From a virus (Duplodnaviria > Caudoviricetes): DNA of 64,000 nucleotides. The notes below the pieces were generated by a model. The model saw only the letters and a program-made list of their open reading frames with translations. It was not told where the DNA came from and did not search any database. How positions within the stretch are numbered: position 1 is the first letter of the stretch; every line of letters begins with the position of its first letter. The DNA lies in the IMG/VR virus record IMGVR_UViG_3300020576_006930, positions 32,001-96,000 of that record, one strand, 5' to 3'. This document shows positions 6,624-33,965 of the stretch, one piece after another. Both the position numbers and the translations under genes were made by a program.

Positions 6624-7026
6624 GGGGCTGTAATGGTTTCGACCAAGTTCTTTGAGTGTTAGGAGCATGTAGAGGATGATTACTTGGCCTCTTAAAAAAT
6701 GTAATTGAAAAATCAAATGCCAAATCTCTAAACAGACTGGCCAACCTTGGATTCGCATTCAATCTGAATGCGACTGAAGTTGCTGTAGCGGCCTAATTCG
6801 GCCGTTCCGTGTTGGGTGATAATTCTCACTAATTATCCAATGCGCAATTTAGTGAGACGACTGGATGTGGTTGTAATACATTCCTGATAGGCGCCTCTGA
6901 TAGGCGCATATATTCTTCAACGACTTGTTGATTCATCCGGAGAATGAAATTCTGAATTAACTAAACATGTAGGGCTTGATACACTAAAAATTTGGCACCC
7001 GGGTTCGACTCCCGGCAGCTCCACCA
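6624..7026 (+). ncRNA. ssrA: tmRNA
   Basis: 5' GGGGCTGTAATGGTTTCGAC; 3' T-arm GGGTTCGACTCCC followed by CAGCTCCACCA (G3:U70). Tag frame 6719-6796 reads AKSLNRLANLGFAFNLNATEVAVAA*. Confidence 0.95.
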
Positions 7027-7774: not shown

Positions 7775-8720
7775 TCAAGATAGTGAATTGATTATTTGAG
7801 GAACGCATCTTCAAAAAAAGAATTTTAGTTTTTGATCTTTGTAGCATAGAATTTACGGGGGGTATGGCCTCCATTATCATCCGCAAGGGTGGTATAAAGA
7901 TAAACCGTGGCGACACGGCCAAAGGGACACTCCCTAACGGGTGCCCACCAATTCGCAAGGATTGGACAACTATACAACTAACAAGGTCTTTAAACATCGC
8001 CCAAAAGGTTGGTGTTATGTCTGAAGTTGGGGAGAAAAATGCTGGCCCAGGGTAACTCCGCAAGCTGGCTACTAACGACGCCGACGAGCTCTATCTCCCG
8101 CTAAGCGCAACAATTAAGAATGAGACTTCAAGTTAAACATCAATGGTATGACCCGCAAGGAAACGCTTTGATGTAGTTTGAGAGAAACCGGGCACGGCTT
8201 ATACTGAGCACGGAATCTTGAAAGACGGAACGAGTACCGCAAGGAAAGGTCAGGACTGGTGTTGGATTTTGTAGACCGAAAGGCTTACGAAACAACAAGC
8301 ACCGCACCAGTTTGTTAGGTTCGAAAATAGCTCAAAAGTAGAGCAATTGTCTTTAGAACAATAGGTTGTGGTGTCAAAGCCACTTTCATTAAAAGCAAAG
8401 CCGGTGCTAATTATACTTGAAAAGGTATTAATACAGAGGCTCGCAAGAGTAACTTTGTCAATCGTAGCCCGCAAGGCGAAAGTTGTTCGTGTAGAAGTGA
8501 ACGGTGTGGTTAGCGCCACTTGTTGCTCGCAAGGTAAACGTTTGAAGAAACGCGGAATAAGGTATAGTTATGATGGAAAGGCCACCATCTAAAAATAGGC
8601 ATACCTATCAGATTCATCTTACGAGCCCCGTGTTCGGAGAATGAGGATGAAGAGGAAGGCGATCTCGCAAGGTCGTGATAATCTCTGACGGCTGATACGC
8701 AACGGTGTAATCTCAACCGA
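7775..8720 (+). ncRNA. giant ornate ncRNA, GOLLD-like (~950 nt)
   Basis: No credible ORF. It has its own promoter (TTGACC...GATAAT 7736-7763), ~9 CGCAAG-capped hairpins and a 3' end CGGTGTAATCTCAACCG, in a phage tRNA-island context. Family assignment is by resemblance only. Confidence 0.65.
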
Positions 8721-18227: not shown

Positions 18228-19262
18228 ATGAACATTCTATTGGACAGAGACACATTCCGCAATGGGGTGTTCATGCGTGACAAAAACAAATGTGTCATTT
18301 GTGGGCAACCGGCTCAGGATGCGCATCACATTATTGAACGTAGATTATTTGACGATGGTGGTTATTATCTTGACAATGGCGCTTCATTATGTGCGACGTG
18401 TCATATTAAGGCCGAATCTACTGAGATTAGTTGCGAAGCTATCAGAGCAGGAGCTGGAATCGTGGACATTGTTTTGCCGCTTCACTTATATCGGGATAAT
18501 GTTTACGATAAGTGGGGCAACATAATCAATGTCAATGGCACGCGGCTGAAAGGCGAATTATTCGGTGATGTCAGTGTTCAGAAGATTTTGAAACAGGGTG
18601 GAGTTCTTAGCAAGTTTGTGGATTATGTAAAATATCCCCGCACTTACCATTTACCTTGGAGTGACGGTTTGACGAATGATGATCGGGTAATGACTCCGGA
18701 GGATTTAAAATTTTTAGAAGATAGTTCGGTGGTCGCTACGGAAAAAATGGATGGAGAAAATACCACCATTTATACCGATTACATTCACGCTCGTTCGGTG
18801 GATAGTCGTTCACATTGGACACAATCATATGTGCGCCAATTACAAAGTAAAATTGGACATGATATCCCAAAGGGTTGGCGGATTTGTGGTGAGAATCTTT
18901 ATGCCAAACATTCCATCAAGTATGATAAATTGGAAGATTTCTTTCTGATGTTTTCGATTTGGGATGACAAAAATCAGTGTTTGAGTTGGTTGGAAACCGT
19001 GGAATGGGCAAAGTTGTTGGGATTAAAAGTGGTAGACGTGTTCTTTGTCGGGCCGTGTTGGAAAGACACGGTACATAAGCTATATGAGGGCAATTCAAAA
19101 CATAAGCCCATTGAAGGTTATGTGGTCAGGACATTGAACGGTTTCTCTTATGGTAATTTTAGAAAATGTACTGGTAAATTTGTTAGAAAAAACCACGTCC
19201 AGACCAGTCACCACTGGCGGTTTGAGAAGATCGAAAAGAATGAGTTATCGTCCGTAGGGTGA
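18228..19262 (+). CDS. HNH domain-ATP-dependent RNA ligase fusion
   Basis: N-terminal CVIC..DAHHI...NGASLCATCH; C-terminal KYPRTYHLPWS, motif I EKMDGEN, GENLYA, EGYVVR, KFVR. Confidence 0.88.
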   Translation: MNILLDRDTFRNGVFMRDKNKCVICGQPAQDAHHIIERRLFDDGGYYLDNGASLCATCHIKAESTEISCEAIRAGAGIVDIVLPLHLYRDNVYDKWGNIINVNGTRLKGELFGDVSVQKILKQGGVLSKFVDYVKYPRTYHLPWSDGLTNDDRVMTPEDLKFLEDSSVVATEKMDGENTTIYTDYIHARSVDSRSHWTQSYVRQLQSKIGHDIPKGWRICGENLYAKHSIKYDKLEDFFLMFSIWDDKNQCLSWLETVEWAKLLGLKVVDVFFVGPCWKDTVHKLYEGNSKHKPIEGYVVRTLNGFSYGNFRKCTGKFVRKNHVQTSHHWRFEKIEKNELSSVG

Positions 19263-19763: not shown

Positions 19764-19849
19764 GCGAGTATGCGCCGAGCTGGCCGATGGCACCGGACTT
19801 TTAATCCGGTATATAAACACCGTGGGTTCGAATCCCACTGCTCGCACCA
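19764..19849 (+). tRNA. tRNA-Lys (TTT) with long variable region
   Basis: CCGGA-CTTTTAA-TCCGG, 12-nt variable region; CCA. Confidence 0.8.
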
Positions 19850-20562: not shown

Positions 20563-20918
20563 ATTTCTGATTCCCCCATATCAACAATCACCGTTTTTCC
20601 CAACGGTTCAAATTTGTTGACCAAATCCGGATTTATTTCCCGTGGGGGAATCAATTTTAATTTAACAATTTTGCCTCAGTCCAGACGGCCTACTTCTAGT
20701 TAAGCACAGACGAAGTAATGAAGAAATGGAGTCTGGGTGCTCTGAGTGCAAATTCATTCGCCAGTTATCTAATCTGGTGCCAACAGCAATCAGGAAAATT
20801 AAAACATTCGTAGGAAGCTATGCTGACCGCAAGAGTGTTTTGGTTGGAATGGTTGGGCCGCTGTTCTGAAAACAAAATTATACGGGGCCGTTCACACCCC
20901 GTTGACAAAGTGAACAAT

Positions 20919-21005
20919 GGTAGGGTATCCAAATGGCTAAAGGACACGGTCTGTAAAACCGCCGCTCAAAAGGCTTTGTGAGTTCGAATCTCATCCCTAC
21001 CACCA
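20919..21005 (+). tRNA. tRNA-Tyr (GTA)
   Basis: Loop CTGTAAA, long variable arm; CCA. Confidence 0.9.
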
Positions 21006-21010
21006 ATTTA

Positions 21011-21065
21011 AAGATGCCAACAGCAAACAAAAATTCAATTATAATGAAAAAAAGATGGCATCTTG
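21011..21065 (+). repeat. ACAGCAA RNA module (related copies at 20776, 23193, 25053, 33767)
   Basis: AAGATGCCA-ACAGCAA...TGGCATCTT-G closing helix. Confidence 0.75.
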
Positions 21066-21103
21066 TTTTAGAACCCTCTATTTATATGGGAGAGGTCTAA
21101 TTT

Positions 21104-21529
21104 ATGAAAAAATTTAATTGTTTATATTGTAAAAAAGAAAAAACACACCAATCGTCTCAGTCTATGGGGAAATATTGTTCGGCAAAATGTCAACAAAATT
21201 TTCAAATAGAGAAAAAAATGGAAAGTGGAAATTGTTTGTATACTCCGGGAATAAGAAATTGGTGTTATAATAATTTAAAACAGGTATGTGATGTGTGTGA
21301 TACGGGATTAATATGGAATAATAAACCGCTGAGATTACAAGTCGATCACAGAAATGGAAATTCCAGAGATAACCGTAGAAATAATTTAAGAATGATTTGT
21401 CCCAATTGTCACACCCAAACCGAAAATTGGGGGATAAAAAACGCATCTCCTGAGGGAGTTGAAAAAATGGTAGTTGCGGGGAAATTAACACAAAAGAATT
21501 TTTGGTCATATAAAGTAATAGTAACCTAA
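21104..21529 (+). CDS. HNH homing endonuclease
   Basis: LQVDHRNGNSRDNRRNNLRMICPNCH; the stop lies inside tRNA-Asp. Confidence 0.9.
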   Translation: MKKFNCLYCKKEKTHQSSQSMGKYCSAKCQQNFQIEKKMESGNCLYTPGIRNWCYNNLKQVCDVCDTGLIWNNKPLRLQVDHRNGNSRDNRRNNLRMICPNCHTQTENWGIKNASPEGVEKMVVAGKLTQKNFWSYKVIVT

Positions 21530-21577
21530 CGCACTGTCTATGCGAAGTCCGGGGAGCGTAACCCCGTATGACCGCCA
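21504..21577 (+). tRNA. tRNA-Asp (GTC)
   Basis: Loop CTGTCTA; atypical T-loop; CCA. Confidence 0.75.
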
Positions 21578-21763
21578 TTTTGATCTGTTGGCTAATCCAC
21601 CTTGCTACGCATTGAGTATGGATCGTAGAGCACGCGGACGGTTTGAATGAATCCCGAACAAGTAGGCTACTAACCGAAAAGTAAGGCTGAGTGAGAAAAC
21701 CGGTGCTTGAAACTGATGATTGGCTTAGTAACCAATAAGCGTTCTGACAGATTAATTTTTTAT

Positions 21764-21837
21764 ACCCCTTTGTTGTAGTGGTAGCAAAGTTCTCTTTGAA
21801 AGAAAAAGTGGTGGTTCGATTCCATCAAGGGGTGCCA
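21764..21837 (+). tRNA. tRNA-Gln (TTG)
   Basis: Loop CTTTGAA; CCA. Confidence 0.85.
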
Positions 21838-22041
21838 ATTTAATGGGTGTACAGTAGTTCAATAAATGGGATAGACATAAAAAGTCTGGGTAGCGCCTCA
21901 GTCCAATTATGGAACCAGTATGAAATCCCCTAGTCGTTGAGAATCTGAGAACACAGAATGAGATAGACGTTCACGCTGAACGGAATATTGTGAAATCCTC
22001 TAGTAAGTGATACGCTGTAAATCAGCGGCCCCATATTTTAT

Positions 22042-22115
22042 GTTCCGGTCGATTAATGGTAGGTCACTGCCCTTTCAAGGCGGGAGCGGGAGTTCGATTC
22101 TCCCTCGGAACACCA
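22042..22115 (+). tRNA. tRNA-Glu (TTC)
   Basis: Loop CTTTCAA; CCA. Confidence 0.9.
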
Positions 22116-22123
22116 TTTTTAAT

Positions 22124-22196
22124 GCTCCTATGATGTAATGCAACATCTTCGGCCGATTACCGAAGCTTGGTGGTTCAAGTCCACCTGGGAGTACCA
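22124..22196 (+). tRNA. tRNA-Ile (GAT), C33 variant
   Basis: Loop CCGATTA; CCA. Confidence 0.7.
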
Positions 22197-22202
22197 ATTT
22201 AC

Positions 22203-22279
22203 GGCCCCATCGTCTATATGTGTTAGGACATCATGTTCTCAACATGAAAAATAGGGTTCAAATCCCAATGGGGCTACCA
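22203..22279 (+). tRNA. tRNA-Glu (CTC)
   Basis: Loop TTCTCAA; CCA. Confidence 0.85.
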
Positions 22280-22361
22280 ATTTCGAATTCCCTGAGTGAG
22301 TCCGCAATTCTATACCGTGATATTCGACGGTGAATGTGGGTTAAACACACCGGGCATTTAC

Positions 22362-22437
22362 GGCCCCGTCGTCTAGAGGACAAGGATTGCGGATTCTCAA
22401 TTCGCGGAACTCGGTTTGATCCCGAGCGGGGCTACCA
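22362..22437 (+). tRNA. tRNA-Glu (CTC), second copy
   Basis: Loop TTCTCAA; CCA. Confidence 0.8.
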
Positions 22438-22439
22438 AT

Positions 22440-22670
22440 TTACATGGGCTTTTTCCATTCCTCAGACTCTTTCAATTCTTTTATAAATTGTTCGTGACGA
22501 TTAAGCCCGACAAGATTTTCATATAATTTTAAGGCTTCAGCGGACATACAATTTACTGACGCATTTTGGATTTTCTTTTGGGTGGTGTATTTTGATGAAT
22601 TTGTAATCATAATTTTTTCAGTGATATTCCGTTTACGGGATGTAATATCAAGGTGGGAAGTATATCTCAT
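22440..22670 (-). CDS. hypothetical protein (antisense within the tRNA island)
   Basis: AT-rich 76-aa ORF filling the gap between tRNAs. Confidence 0.5.
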   Translation of the reverse strand: MRYTSHLDITSRKRNITEKIMITNSSKYTTQKKIQNASVNCMSAEALKLYENLVGLNRHEQFIKELKESEEWKKPM

Positions 22671-22848
22671 TCTTGAAAAGAAGATATGGGGTTAAACCCC
22701 ATTAGGTAATACCCTACTAATCCAATTTCCATAAGCTATGAACCAACAAATAAACAACGGCATTAGATGGTTGTAACGGGTGCGAAGTCCGACCCAATGA
22801 ACATAATTCATTGGTGTAAGCCAGACATAGTAAAGTGGAAAGATTTAT

Positions 22849-22923
22849 TCCAGAGTAGTGTCAAAGTAGCACACGCGGCTGTTAACCGTGTTAGTGTTGG
22901 TGCGAGTCCAACTTCTGGAGCCA
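22849..22923 (+). tRNA. tRNA-Asn (GTT)
   Basis: Loop CTGTTAA; CCA. Confidence 0.85.
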
Positions 22924-23192
22924 ATTTTTGTTGCGCTAACGGGCTAGAGTAAAGTAACTCAGTCGCCTTTATAAGCGAAAGATAGTAGGTTAACGCCCTA
23001 TATGACCCGCAGGTATCTCTAAGACATGAGGTCGCAACAAAACGATTTTCAACACCGATAAATAACGATGCTGTTATATTTCCGGACCAACGGTTGACCG
23101 ACAAAAACAGCATCGGTTTTGAACCTATTAGTTCAACGCATGATGAATGTGAGGATGAGAAGTTAGCTCACGATAAAATCTTCTCCACTTTT

Positions 23193-23248
23193 AAGATGCC
23201 AACAGCAACCAAATCACTTGCCTGTTAAGCAAAAAAGATGGCATCTTG
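23193..23248 (+). repeat. ACAGCAA RNA module carrying an Asn-type anticodon stem-loop
   Basis: TTGC-CTGTTAA-GCAA inside the AAGATGCCA/TGGCATCTT helix. Confidence 0.75.
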
Positions 23249-23772: not shown

Positions 23773-24678
23773 ATGAAAATGGGAGTCGTAAAATGTAGTC
23801 GGTGTCGTAAAGAATTCGAAAAACCCCAATCTGAGATTAAGAGAATGGTAAAAAGAAAATGGGTAAACCATTTTTGTGGTACCAAATGTCTTTCTGAATT
23901 CGGCGTGGTGTTTCGGAAGAAACTTTCCGATGAAAGAATAAAATCGTATTATCTTTCTCCTAAGAAATGTCCAAATTGTGATTCAGTCATTCCACACGAA
24001 GACAAATCACAAAAAACATATTGTTCATCAAAATGTTTCGGTATCCATTCTCAAAAAAACGGTGGCCATTGTCATTGGTCAGATGAAGATAAAGAACGCT
24101 TACGGCAACAAGCCAAAAACAATCCCAAATTTGTTCCGGGGTGGAATAGAGGGAAACGGTATGCTCCAACAATTACATTAAAATGTAGAAATTGTGGGGG
24201 TGATTTTATACAAACAATTTCCAAAATAAATTCTAATAAAACGCAAACTTGCGGAAAAGAATGTAGAAGAAAATTACAATCTATCAATTTACTTAACCAG
24301 TACAAAAATGGGAAGAAAGTATATGGCGGAACAACCAAGTGGTTAAAATACAAAGATATAAAAGTTCAGGGCTCATATGAATATAGAACTTGTCAAATCT
24401 TAGACCGTTGGCAACAGGTCAATAAAATTAAAAAATGGGAATATACAAACGATAGATTTGAGTATATAGGAACTGACGGGAATAACCACAATTACTTGAT
24501 GGATTTCAAGATATGGAATAACGATGGTTCTTTTTATTATCTAGAAACTAAAGGATATGAAAAAGAAAATGATAGGTTGAAATGGAAATCTGTCGTGGAT
24601 GCCGGATACAAATTGGATGTGTGGTTTGATCCTGATATTAGACAGAGAGAAAAAGAATTTATGGAGGTTGTAGCATAA
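23773..24678 (+). CDS. homing endonuclease: Cys-finger repeats + TnsA-like PD-(D/E)xK domain
   Basis: Repeated CxxC...(F/Y)CxxxC; GSYE...YLMDF...YLETKG; the stop lies inside tRNA-His. Confidence 0.8.
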   Translation: MKMGVVKCSRCRKEFEKPQSEIKRMVKRKWVNHFCGTKCLSEFGVVFRKKLSDERIKSYYLSPKKCPNCDSVIPHEDKSQKTYCSSKCFGIHSQKNGGHCHWSDEDKERLRQQAKNNPKFVPGWNRGKRYAPTITLKCRNCGGDFIQTISKINSNKTQTCGKECRRKLQSINLLNQYKNGKKVYGGTTKWLKYKDIKVQGSYEYRTCQILDRWQQVNKIKKWEYTNDRFEYIGTDGNNHNYLMDFKIWNNDGSFYYLETKGYEKENDRLKWKSVVDAGYKLDVWFDPDIRQREKEFMEVVA

Positions 24679-24741: not shown

Positions 24742-25052
24742 ATTTCAGCGGACTCAGTCGCATAGCTACGACTGGATACAACACAACTGAGCCACGACGC
24801 GGAGATGAAGCTCGAGCTTTAATAAGTCAATGTGATCGCAGTTGAAACCGCTGTCGTATTTCCAATGGAATGAGTATCTGATTAAAAACACAAGGAGAGA
24901 GATTGTTCCGCTGCAGCGGACAGACCTCCGTGAAATCCTCCCGAAGTTTAGGAGAAAGTTCCTTTTTAGTTTACGCCAGGTTAGGGATGGATTATTCCTC
25001 ACGGAAGTCTCAATTGACAAGCGAGCGTCCAGAAACCCACTGGCTGAAATTT

Positions 25053-25166
25053 TAGATGCGGACAGCAAGCAATCGATTATGTCAAACTCTTAGTGTGGGT
25101 TCGAATCCCATGTATGGTGTAATGGTAGCACAGGAGTCCCGCAAGGGAATCAAAAAACGCATCTAG
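25053..25166 (+). ncRNA. ACAGCAA module containing a circularly permuted tRNA elbow (YrlA/Y-RNA-like)
   Basis: The T-arm GTGGG-TTCGAAT-CCCAT precedes the D-arm GTGT-AATGGTA-GCAC; both are closed by ACTCT/GGAGT. Confidence 0.7.
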
Positions 25167-25351
25167 TTTTTCGAGTAGTAATAATAGGAAGTGACCAATC
25201 GGTATCCGCCTCATGAATGTAACCCAGGACTGGTAGCCTGTCGTGCGAGCAAGTTAATCCCTCGCTGGTGAAAGGGTAGGACAAGTTGATACCGGCGTAT
25301 TATTATGAGCGGTAGTTGGGACCTGATAAGTTCACAAACCATTCGATTTAT

Positions 25352-25425
25352 GGCCCATTCGTCTATCAGCAGGACCACTCGTTTTCAGCGAGAAGAGGCC
25401 GGAGCGTCACCGGCATGGGCTACCA
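25352..25425 (+). tRNA. tRNA-Glu (TTC)
   Basis: Loop TTTTCAG; atypical T-loop; CCA. Confidence 0.75.
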
Positions 25426-25779
25426 CTTTCGGCAGTCATAGGGAGTCATGACCTTAGAACACTCATGTTGTGTTATGCTCTGAAATAAAGTCACATTAAA
25501 AATTAAGATAAATACATGTATAATCAAAATAAGTAGATGTGATGGACACGTAAGAGAGACTGCGACCATTTCGGGTATGTCTTGGGAGAGTTATCGGGTT
25601 CAATTCCCGAATAGTCCACCATACGGGCTATGGGATGGTCCTGTCGCTAGCGACAAAAGCGGGTTCGATCCCCGTCATATCCATTGATTTGACCCGGAGA
25701 ATATCCGATAAATACGACACTTGGTTGGGTGCTATTCCAGAAGCTTAAAATACCCTTCAAAAGACGGGTCACCAATTTC

Positions 25780-25854
25780 GCAGTATTGATGCTAGTGGCA
25801 ACATGCGGCTTTCCCAAAGCTGATTCGTCAGTTCGATTCTGATATACTGCTCCA
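25780..25854 (+). tRNA. tRNA-Gly (CCC)
   Basis: Loop TTCCCAA; U73; CCA. Confidence 0.88.
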
Positions 25855-32059: not shown

Positions 32060-32135
32060 GGCCTGTTAGCTCAATTGGTAGAGCACGACTCTCTAAAAGT
32101 TTTTGTTGCGGGTTCGAGCCCCGCACAGGCCTCCA
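32060..32135 (+). tRNA. amber suppressor tRNA (CTA)
   Basis: Canonical D and T arms, loop CTCTAAA, U73, CCA; weak top of the anticodon stem. Confidence 0.8.
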
Positions 32136-33676: not shown

Positions 33677-33965
33677 TCTTCTTCAAAAAATAAATTAAGA
33701 CTTGACCTTTTTACAAAAATGTGAGATACTTATCTCCAGATGGAGGTGAGGAACCTCTATTCGGTAAGATACGCACAGCAAAAAATAAAAAATAATACAA
33801 GCAAACAACCAAATAACCTATCAATTGGTCATTGGTAAGTTGGTCGAAAGCCAACTCTAAAAAAGTTTTCCGTGATGTAGCGAACACGTAACCTGAATGC
33901 TCGGAGTTGGTGCGTCCGTCAAAACATAACCCGGAGACAACCGTATAATCCGTATCTAGTAAACC

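What the first reader, a model, noticed from the sequence alone, without database searches (positions are those of the whole stretch)
20776..23248. Repeated ACAGCAA RNA cassette with interchangeable cargo, including bare anticodon stem-loops
Seen: five copies of helix-ACAGCAA-(A-rich)-cargo-helix at 20776 (weak), 21011, 23193, 25053 and 33767. Copies 21011 and 23193 share AAGATGCCAACAGCAA...AAAAAAGATGGCATCTTGTTTT. They differ in a central hairpin: TTCA-ATTATAA-TGAA versus TTGC-CTGTTAA-GCAA, the latter identical to the tRNA-Asn anticodon loop. The other copies carry a permuted tRNA elbow or several hairpins. Inference: a protein-bound handle displaying tRNA fragments as decoys or adaptors.
Basis: partly seen in the sequence, partly recalled or inferred. 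Interest (0 to 1): 0.75.

Follow-up and report, generated by a model that had tools for sequence, protein, structure and literature searches.

The report
Handle-tagged tRNA-mimic RNAs in phage
Four small RNA genes hidden in this giant phage's tRNA cluster share one conserved "handle" (a short helix plus ACAGCAA) joined to tRNA look-alike parts; in hundreds of other phages the same handle lies beside a gene for a Ro60-shaped RNA-binding protein, so they are most likely an uncatalogued kind of Y RNA used in the phage-host fight over tRNAs.

Summary
Four of the five copies are real (21011-21065, 23193-23248, 25053-25166, 33766-33959). The copy at 20776 has the motif but no closing helix.

They belong to a large RNA family absent from Rfam 15 and from every paper I could search. 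It has a 7-bp covarying stem, two bases, an almost invariant ACAGCAA, variable cargo, the 3' strand and a conserved G.

The cargo is not random. Of 255 non-redundant cassettes, 92 carry a hairpin shaped like an anticodon loop (31.6 in shuffles), mostly Lys-UUU and Asn-GUU. Another 22 carry a T-arm (1.9 in shuffles).

In relatives the handle lies beside a ~500-aa DUF2828/DUF7788 gene whose model folds like Ro60. Of 80 loci chosen by that protein alone, 69 had same-strand cassettes. All five complete cassette-bearing phage records have the gene.

The main weakness is that this record (39% complete) and 16 fragments of its lineage show no such gene.

Best reading: these are Y-RNA-like partners of a phage Ro60 homologue that display tRNA mimics. 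A decoy or adaptor role is inferred, not shown.

The scan had already found this family on other DNA, in at least 85 genomes.

The parts
21011..21065 (+). Cassette 1. 5' stem AAGATGC 21011-21017, gap CA, ACAGCAA 21020-26. Cargo hairpin TTCA/ATTATAA/TGAA 21034-21048, whose loop reads as anticodon UAU with U33 and A37. 3' stem GCATCTT 21058-64, G 21065. It starts 5 nt after the CCA of tRNA-Tyr.
   Evidence: (R1 62.3 bits)
23193..23248 (+). Cassette 2. Same handle as cassette 1, with ACAGCAA at 23202-08. Cargo hairpin TTGC/CTGTTAA/GCAA 23218-23232, which equals the tRNA-Asn(GUU) anticodon loop. 3' stem 23241-47, G 23248.
   Evidence: (R1 62.5 bits)
25053..25166 (+). Cassette 3. Stem TAGATGC/GCATCTA, ACAGCAA 25062-68. 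The cargo is a T-arm (25095-25110), then a D-arm-like hairpin, then a GCAA-capped hairpin: a tRNA elbow in permuted T-before-D order.
   Evidence: family D9; R1 31.9 bits, E 0.004
33766..33959 (+). Cassette 4. AAGATAC-GC-ACAGCAA (33775-81) ... GTATCT 33952-57, A, G 33959. The outermost pair is an A.A mismatch. The ~170-nt cargo holds several hairpins of unknown kind. The cassette ends 7 nt before tRNA-Val.
   Evidence: the closing helix forms in the MFE fold; below the R1 threshold because of the long insert
20776..20789 (+). GGTGCCAACAGCAA: the motif only, with no closing strand. Not a cassette; possibly a remnant.

Best explanation
The four elements are genes for small stable RNAs of a widespread, uncatalogued family. 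Each RNA has a constant handle: a 7-bp helix N-A-G-R-Y-N-C / G-N-R-Y-C-U-N, two bases, ACAGCAA on the 5' side, an A-rich 3' side, and a G after the helix. The handle encloses a swappable module that copies part of a tRNA, either an anticodon stem-loop or a T/D-arm elbow. In other phages the handle is instead grafted onto a whole tRNA body in place of the anticodon loop. By analogy with Ro60 and Y RNA, the handle is probably the docking site for a phage Ro60-like ring protein (DUF2828 + vWA). The tRNA-like module then presents a tRNA look-alike to a tRNA-recognising factor such as an anticodon nuclease, or a modification or repair enzyme, acting as decoy or tether. What is shown: the RNA helix by covariation, the conserved motif, the non-random tRNA-like cargo, the gene-RNA linkage in relatives, and the Ro60 fold of the model. 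What is inferred: physical binding, the presence of the protein in this phage (61% of the genome is unseen), and the decoy or adaptor role. Here the RNAs are probably co-transcribed with the tRNAs and cut out of the operon transcripts. Cassette 1 begins 5 nt after a CCA-ATTT tRNA end, and cassette 2 begins after a similar CCA-CTTTT.
For: The helix is real. In 115 distinct sequences 99.5% of cells pair, 160 cells carry changes on both sides, and all 7 pairs covary; slid controls pair at 30-48%. ACAGCAA is 94-100% conserved and the 3' G 98%. The pattern with closing strand hits 58 IMG/VR stretches against about 3 expected by my own estimate. My scanner finds 138 cassettes against 7 in shuffled DNA. 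Cargo: the best hairpin has a 7-nt loop in 42 of 105 cassettes (12.8 in shuffles), with C32 64%, U33 83%, A37 86% and A38 81%. This was replicated on loci chosen by protein alone: 46 of 115 against 13.4. The classes are 92 ASL-like, 22 T-arm and 141 other, against 31.6, 1.9 and 221.5 in shuffles. The same loop is closed by many different stems. Linkage: one ORF cluster occurs in 42 sources and abuts the cassettes. It matches DUF2828 + DUF7788 + weak VWA and PHROG 850 'RNA-binding protein'. The AF2 model has pLDDT 85.5, and the 12 matches ranked highest by Foldseek are all Ro60/TROVE entries aligned over the full length. Reverse test: 69 of 80 protein-selected viral loci have same-strand cassettes, 173 against 1 terminal and 72 against 3 grafted. 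In bacterial assemblies the figure is 60 of 80. All records at least 90% complete have the gene, 4 of 4 plus G002. The handle is modular: it also sits, capped by G-AAA, in the anticodon-loop position of tRNA bodies. A Ro60-like gene directly upstream of tRNAs in phage Bas63 counters the 'ppl' defence system (PMC11482910). A Felixounavirus has 4 cassettes in that position.
Against: No DUF2828, DUF7788, TROVE or VWA gene lies in the 139 kb held for this phage. None lies in 16 fragments of its lineage either. The cassettes sit at least 50 kb from either contig end, further than the largest gene-cassette distance seen elsewhere, about 17 kb in G019. No binding, expression or processing data exist. 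141 of 255 cargos fit no tRNA-like class. The displayed anticodons are mixed (Lys, Asn, Ser-UGA, Cys...), so no single target is evident. 11 of 80 protein-selected loci show no cassette.
Confidence: 0.65

Rival explanations
1. The RNAs are stand-alone tRNA-fragment decoys or sponges that work without any phage Ro60-like protein in this lineage. The handle would be recognised by a host factor, or would only stabilise the RNA.
For: No Ro60-like gene lies in this record or in 16 related fragments. The cargo mimics anticodon loops of Lys-UUU and Asn-GUU, which are known targets of PrrC and of PARIS AriB (PMC12409363).
Against: Every complete cassette-bearing record has the gene. The handle is conserved to the base across very different phages that do have it. 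This record is only 39% complete.
Confidence: 0.15
2. The elements act in cis within the tRNA operons, as processing signals, terminators or attenuators, and are not trans-acting RNAs.
For: In this window three copies end in G+TTTT(T). They lie at junctions between tRNAs and ORFs.
Against: Across the family the 3' tail is not U-rich. Loops of 30-190 nt are unlike intrinsic terminators, and the terminator scan lists none of them. Cassettes occur in tandem like tRNA genes and as grafts inside tRNA bodies. Invariant ACAGCAA together with tRNA-like cargo is not explained by this reading.
Confidence: 0.08
3. The RNAs are minimal 'armless' tRNAs that are charged and used in decoding. The handle would be the acceptor stem with a G discriminator, and the cargo the anticodon arm.
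For: The stem is 7 bp followed by one conserved unpaired base. The hairpins have 4-5 bp and canonical 7-nt anticodon loops.
Against: No CCA is encoded, although every tRNA of this phage encodes it. The discriminator-like G does not change with the anticodon. Many cargos have no anticodon hairpin at all, or are elbows or 170-nt inserts. In grafted forms the handle replaces the anticodon loop. Neither ARAGORN nor the Rfam tRNA model detects them.
Confidence: 0.03
4. The repeats act at the DNA level, for example as homing-endonuclease targets or recombination sites.
For: HNH and NUMOD3/endonuclease-I-like ORFs lie next to cassettes 1 and 2 and recur near cassettes elsewhere.
Against: The helix shows compensatory changes. 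Orientation follows the tRNAs and the Ro-like gene strictly, 173 against 1. Such endonuclease genes are common invaders of tRNA arrays.
Confidence: 0.02

Closest known systems
Ro60 (Rsr) with Y RNAs: bacterial and phage YrlA (Rfam RF02553; Chen et al. 2014, PMC4201824) and Thermus phage phiLo Ro60 with Yrl1/Yrl2 (PMC12135203; PDB 9KOP, 9L5Y)
   Same: The small RNAs are encoded next to a Ro60-fold ring + vWA protein. Each has a terminal helix with a conserved single-stranded motif as the presumed docking module, and a second module that mimics tRNA (T and D arms). Cassette 3 has that layout, with the ends in the handle and a closed tRNA elbow.
   Different: The protein is Pfam DUF2828/DUF7788, not TROVE, and shows only 10-16% identity to solved Ro60s. 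The motif is ACAGCAA, not GNCGAA(N)G or CGAA. No YrlA model match reaches threshold: the best is 16.8 bits against 69, and none is in the window. The cargo includes bare anticodon stem-loops. The handle can be grafted into full tRNA bodies. There are up to about 6-14 copies per phage.
Bas63 gp130, a Ro60-like protein upstream of the tRNA genes that counters the 'ppl' defence system (PhageMaP preprint, PMC11482910)
   Same: The gene context matches that of the Felixounavirus family member, which lies directly upstream of the tRNA array. In HK3 that array holds 4 ACAGCAA cassettes. The authors guessed that some 'tRNAs' may be Y RNAs.
   Different: No RNA partner was identified there. I did not verify that gp130 itself belongs to DUF2828; that is inferred from genus and synteny.
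tRNA-like stable RNAs of unknown function in the tRNA clusters of phages T4 and T5
   Same: They are small non-tRNA RNAs embedded in phage tRNA operons and presumably processed with the tRNAs.
   Different: No ACAGCAA handle is known for them, and I did not test it.
Phage tRNAs that evade anticodon nucleases (T5 tRNA-Lys/Thr/Asn against PARIS AriB, PMC12409363; T4 against PrrC)
   Same: The same tRNA identities dominate the displayed loops: Lys-UUU, Asn-GUU and some Thr.
   Different: Those are complete, decoding tRNAs that replace cleaved host tRNAs. These are fragments on a handle and cannot decode.

Membership tests
ACAGCAA-handle RNA family (uncatalogued; defined here by model R1 and alignment A4) | A 7-bp covarying terminal helix with A-G at its base and C at its top, closed by G...C-U | tested here: met
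   Copies 21011, 23193 and 25053 match R1 (62.3, 62.5 and 31.9 bits). Copy 33766 has 6 bp plus an A.A mismatch. Copy 20776 fails.
ACAGCAA-handle RNA family (uncatalogued; defined here by model R1 and alignment A4) | ACAGCAA two bases after the 5' strand, and an unpaired G right after the 3' strand | tested here: met
   Present in all four copies. Family conservation is 94-100% for the motif and 98% for the G.
ACAGCAA-handle RNA family (uncatalogued; defined here by model R1 and alignment A4) | A DUF2828-type Ro60-like gene in the same genome, usually adjacent | tested here: not met
   None in the 139-kb record, which is 39% complete. The feature is met in 42 of the cassette-selected sources, in 69 of 80 protein-selected loci and in all complete records. 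For this phage the question stays open.
YrlA / Y RNA (Rfam RF02553) | A match to the Rfam covariance model at or above 69 bits | tested here: not met
   No hit in the window even at E <= 10. The best hit in a relative is 16.8 bits.
YrlA / Y RNA (Rfam RF02553) | The Rsr-binding motif GNCGAAN0-1G (or CGAA) in the stem or bulge (PMC4201824, PMC12135203) | tested here: not met
   The conserved motif is ACAGCAA.
YrlA / Y RNA (Rfam RF02553) | Encoded beside a TROVE-domain Ro60 gene | tested here: not met
   PF05731 is absent from the record. The partner in relatives is DUF2828/DUF7788, which has a Ro60 fold but does not match the TROVE Pfam model.
YrlA / Y RNA (Rfam RF02553) | A tRNA-like module (T and D arms) joined to the protein-binding stem | tested here: met
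   Cassette 3 carries a T-arm 16-mer identical to the one at 19822-19837 in tRNA-Lys 19764-19849, plus a D-arm-like hairpin. Cassettes 1 and 2 carry anticodon arms instead.
YrlA / Y RNA (Rfam RF02553) | Physical binding to the Ro60 protein | not testable with these tools
   Needs EMSA or co-purification.
tRNA | A cloverleaf detected by ARAGORN or Rfam RF00005 | tested here: not met
   No call overlaps the cassettes.
Intrinsic terminator | A GC-rich hairpin with a 3-8 nt loop followed by a U-run, conserved across homologues | tested here: not met
   The scan does not list them. Loops are 30-190 nt. The tail is U-rich only in this window, not across the family.

The most novel reading that the evidence does not exclude
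The ACAGCAA-handle RNAs and the DUF2828 Ro60-like ring form a second, very widespread class of Ro/Y-RNA particle in phages, from Felix O1-like phages and mycobacteriophages to jumbo phages. Its interchangeable cargo presents anticodon arms (chiefly Lys-UUU and Asn-GUU), tRNA elbows or whole tRNA bodies. This would capture or mislead host tRNA-targeting defence nucleases, or channel damaged tRNAs to repair. It would be a programmable RNA-display counter-defence.
Probability: 0.3. Interest if true: 0.85.

Novelty: new variant of a known kind. Interest (0 to 1): 0.68.

Why it matters
Ro60/Y-RNA particles are conserved from bacteria to humans, yet it is poorly understood what the variable part of a Y RNA does. 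This family has hundreds of natural variants with one constant handle and clearly readable cargo: specific anticodon loops, tRNA elbows and whole tRNA bodies. That makes the question of what the Y RNA module recruits directly testable. The protein occurs in 708 cultured phage records, including Felix O1-like, Listeria, Staphylococcus and mycobacterial phages. One published screen links a Ro60-like gene in this position to escape from a defence system. The RNAs are unannotated and absent from Rfam. Naming them would explain many 'empty' gaps in phage tRNA arrays and could reveal an RNA-based anti-defence strategy.

Tried and rejected
- **Rfam.** Searches at gathering and at E-value thresholds on the window and on five related loci found only tRNAs, tmRNA and GOLLD.
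- **Canonical Ro60.** TROVE is absent from this record.
- **Sequence-only PDB searches.** Searches with the partner protein and with its profile found nothing relevant. Only the fold search showed Ro60.
- **t6A hypothesis.** I considered that all displayed anticodons end in U36. I dropped it when the protein-selected set gave Ser-UGA, Cys-GCA and Gln-UUG loops.
- **K-turn, CRISPR-repeat or tracrRNA mimicry, and known small ribozymes.** I considered these from memory and rejected them, because the 3' strand is not conserved and Rfam gave no match.
- **The 301-aa ORF after cassette 2.** It recurs near cassettes in 7 sources but carries a NUMOD3 motif and weak phage endonuclease-I-like matches. 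It is probably a homing endonuclease, not the partner.
- **Partner gene in kin of this phage.** 16 fragments found through the baseplate protein contain none, but all are 6-48% complete.
- **Phage DNA search with the region.** It hit only tRNA genes.
- **Literature.** 'DUF2828' appears only in 5 papers on eukaryotes (mostly plants), none about its function or any RNA partner.
Full report
**Context.** The window is bases 32001-96000 of a 139-kb IMG/VR virus record estimated to be 39% complete, so it comes from a very large phage. It holds a tmRNA, a GOLLD RNA and 42 ARAGORN tRNA genes (Rfam adds a few more tRNA hits), all on the + strand, between about 13.4 and 36 kb. Each tRNA ends in an encoded CCA followed by ATTT.

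**Observation.** The bare 7-mer ACAGCAA is not enriched: 11 matches against 7.1 expected. The composite architecture is specific, however. In the whole record, ACAGCAA preceded by a 6-mer whose reverse complement lies downstream occurs at four places on the + strand (window 21020, 23202, 25062, 33775), all in the tRNA array. The copy at 20776 shares GGTGCCAACAGCAA but has no closing strand within 1 kb and folds differently. Four of the five copies therefore stand.

**A real RNA family.** An exact-pattern scan of IMG/VR first gave about the number of hits expected by chance. A subset of those hits had a closing helix with a different, complementary sequence, such as AGACAC/GTGTCT or AGACCT/AGGTCT, and lay in tRNA arrays or in tandem.
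- A pattern that demands the closing strand hit 58 stretches, where I estimate about 3 by chance.
- My scanner found 138 distinct cassettes in the fetched DNA against 7 in shuffled DNA.
- Covariance model R1 found 128 matches in 1.1 Mb.
- On that alignment the helix pairs in 99.5% of cells. It has 160 cells changed on both sides, and all seven pairs covary. Slid controls pair at 30-48%.
- The consensus is N-A-G-R-Y-N-C, two bases, ACAGCAA (94-100% conserved), an A-rich 3' side, G-N-R-Y-C-U-N, then G (98%).
- The 3' tail is not U-rich across the family, and the terminator scan does not list the window copies.
- No Rfam 15 family matches, in the window or in relatives.

**Cargo.**
- Among 105 short-cargo cassettes, the best hairpin has a 7-nt loop in 42 (12.8 in shuffles). 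Those loops show C32 64%, U33 83%, A37 86% and A38 81%, against 18, 33, 47 and 44% in shuffles.
- This was reproduced on loci chosen by the partner protein alone: 46 of 115 against 13.4, with C32 85%, U33 83%, A37 89% and A38 87%.
- The commonest loops are CUUUUAA (Lys-UUU), CUGUUAA (Asn-GUU), CUUGAAA (Ser-UGA) and CUGCUAA (Ser-GCU). The same loop is closed by many different stems.
- Of 255 non-redundant cargos, 92 are anticodon-arm-like (31.6 in shuffles), 22 contain a T-arm (1.9 in shuffles) and 141 are unclassified.
- In a third layout the handle is a closed hairpin capped by G-AAA, placed where the anticodon loop of an otherwise complete tRNA body would be, as at L081 5654-5769 and 5777-5896. 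The handle therefore behaves as an independent module.
- The window's cassettes 1 and 2 carry anticodon arms, and the loop of cassette 2 equals that of both tRNA-Asn genes. Cassette 3 carries a T-arm followed by a D-arm. Cassette 4 has unclassified cargo.

**Partner protein.** All-against-all clustering of ORFs from the fetched loci gave one dominant cluster, present in 42 sources. It is about 500 aa long and abuts or is flanked by the cassettes.
- It matches Pfam DUF2828 + DUF7788 with a weak VWA signal and PHROG 850 'RNA-binding protein'.
- Sequence searches of the PDB found nothing.
- An AlphaFold model from 25 homologues (pLDDT 85.5, pTM 0.81) has Ro60/TROVE structures as its 12 highest-ranked Foldseek matches, aligned over the whole length. 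They include Thermus phage phiLo Ro60, Xenopus Ro and Deinococcus Rsr (E 2e-8 to 6e-5). vWA domains rank after them.
- The invariant D298/S300/S302, T370 and D402 fit a MIDAS site. That reading is my inference.

**Tests of the linkage.**
- I picked 80 viral loci by the protein alone. Of these, 69 carry cassettes on the gene's strand: 173 terminal-type on the gene's strand against 1 on the opposite strand, and 72 grafted-type against 3. They cluster within 500 nt of the gene's ends.
- In bacterial assemblies, probably prophages or binned phage contigs, the figure is 60 of 80, with 103 against 5 and 69 against 4.
- Among cassette-bearing records whose locus lacked the gene, every record at least 90% complete has it elsewhere (4 of 4), as does the complete G002. 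Only fragments at most 36% complete lack it.
- Cassettes can lie up to about 17 kb from the gene.
- The protein occurs in 708 cultured phage records. Escherichia phage HK3 (Felixounavirus) has four cassettes in the tRNA array just downstream of the gene. Mycobacterium phage Archie has three after its annotated 'Ro-like RNA binding protein'.

**The weak point for this window.** DUF2828, DUF7788, TROVE, VWA_2 and profile A3 find nothing in the 139 kb held. The same holds for 16 fragments of the same lineage found through the baseplate protein (42-62% identity, 6-48% complete). The gene may lie in the unseen 61% of the genome, or this lineage may use the RNAs differently.

**Comparison with what is known.** Ro60 binds Y RNAs through a terminal helix and motif, and bacterial and phage YrlA carry a tRNA-like second module (PMC4201824). 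phiLo Ro60 binds two upstream Y-like RNAs that carry CGAA motifs (PMC12135203). The present RNAs work like that on paper but fail YrlA membership. They have a different motif, no model match, and a partner that matches DUF2828/DUF7788, not the TROVE Pfam model. A preprint reports that Bas63 gp130, Ro60-like and directly upstream of the tRNAs, counters the 'ppl' defence system. It guesses that some of the tRNAs are Y RNAs (PMC11482910). No RNA partner was defined there. PARIS AriB cleaves tRNA-Lys(UUU), Thr(UGU) and Asn(GUU) (PMC12409363). That overlaps the commonest displayed loops and makes a decoy or tether role plausible, but it is untested.

**Literature.** My searches found no description of this RNA family.

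**Earlier notes of the scan.** After I had reached this reading, a look-up showed that other agents had reported the same handle and DUF2828 pairing on other DNA, in at least 85 genomes. Those notes agree with my results but are not independent evidence.

**Verdict.** The elements are members of an uncatalogued Y-RNA-like family. The link to a Ro60-like protein is strong in relatives and open for this phage. The mechanism is inferred.

Noticed in passing
window 8252-8719 and 6624-7026: A GOLLD RNA (157 bits; gathering score 150) and a phage tmRNA (tag ...ATEVAVAA) lie just upstream of the tRNA array. The end of the tmRNA tag ORF contains UUGCUGU, the complement of ACAGCAA, at 6780-6786. This is probably chance.
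   Followed up: no
window 18228-19262: An ORF that fuses an HNH endonuclease domain to an RNA-ligase domain (PF01844 + PF09414), inside the tRNA array.
   Followed up: partly
window 21530-21760, 21843-22040, 22690-22850, 22930-23190, 24745-25050, 25170-25780: Long non-coding gaps between tRNAs contain further tRNA-like 3' ends (T-arm plus CCA-ATTT, the repeat finder families D1-D6) that ARAGORN does not call. The array holds many more structured RNAs than the annotated tRNAs.
   Followed up: no
window 32060-32135: A tRNA with anticodon CUA (an amber suppressor, called 'Pyl' by ARAGORN).
   Followed up: no
window 21104-21529 and 23773-24678: An HNH ORF lies right after cassette 1. A 301-aa ORF with weak endonuclease matches lies after cassette 2, and its homologues in other phages carry a NUMOD3 motif and weak phage endonuclease-I-like matches. 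The second family recurs near cassettes in 7 sources and is probably a homing endonuclease.
   Followed up: partly
G002 (L060) 73491-73958 and 74741-75844: In a complete 148-kb phage the Ro60-like gene is split into two ORFs about 780 nt apart, which may be an intron or an inserted element. G019, G020 and G011 show single in-frame stops in the match, which may reflect another genetic code or a read-through.
   Followed up: no
L081 5654-5896; L093 4612-4977 (- strand); L112 1002-1116: Rfam tRNA hits of 113-120 nt next to Ro60-like genes are tRNA bodies whose anticodon loop is replaced by about 54 nt holding the ACAGCAA handle hairpin. Such 'tRNAs with introns' in phage annotations may be this RNA.
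   Followed up: partly
L383 (Escherichia phage HK3) 5200-6000 and L384 (Mycobacterium phage Archie) 3960-4230: Unannotated gaps in these GenBank records hold 4 and 3 ACAGCAA cassettes respectively. In HK3 the spacer before ACAGCAA is 3 nt.
   Followed up: partly
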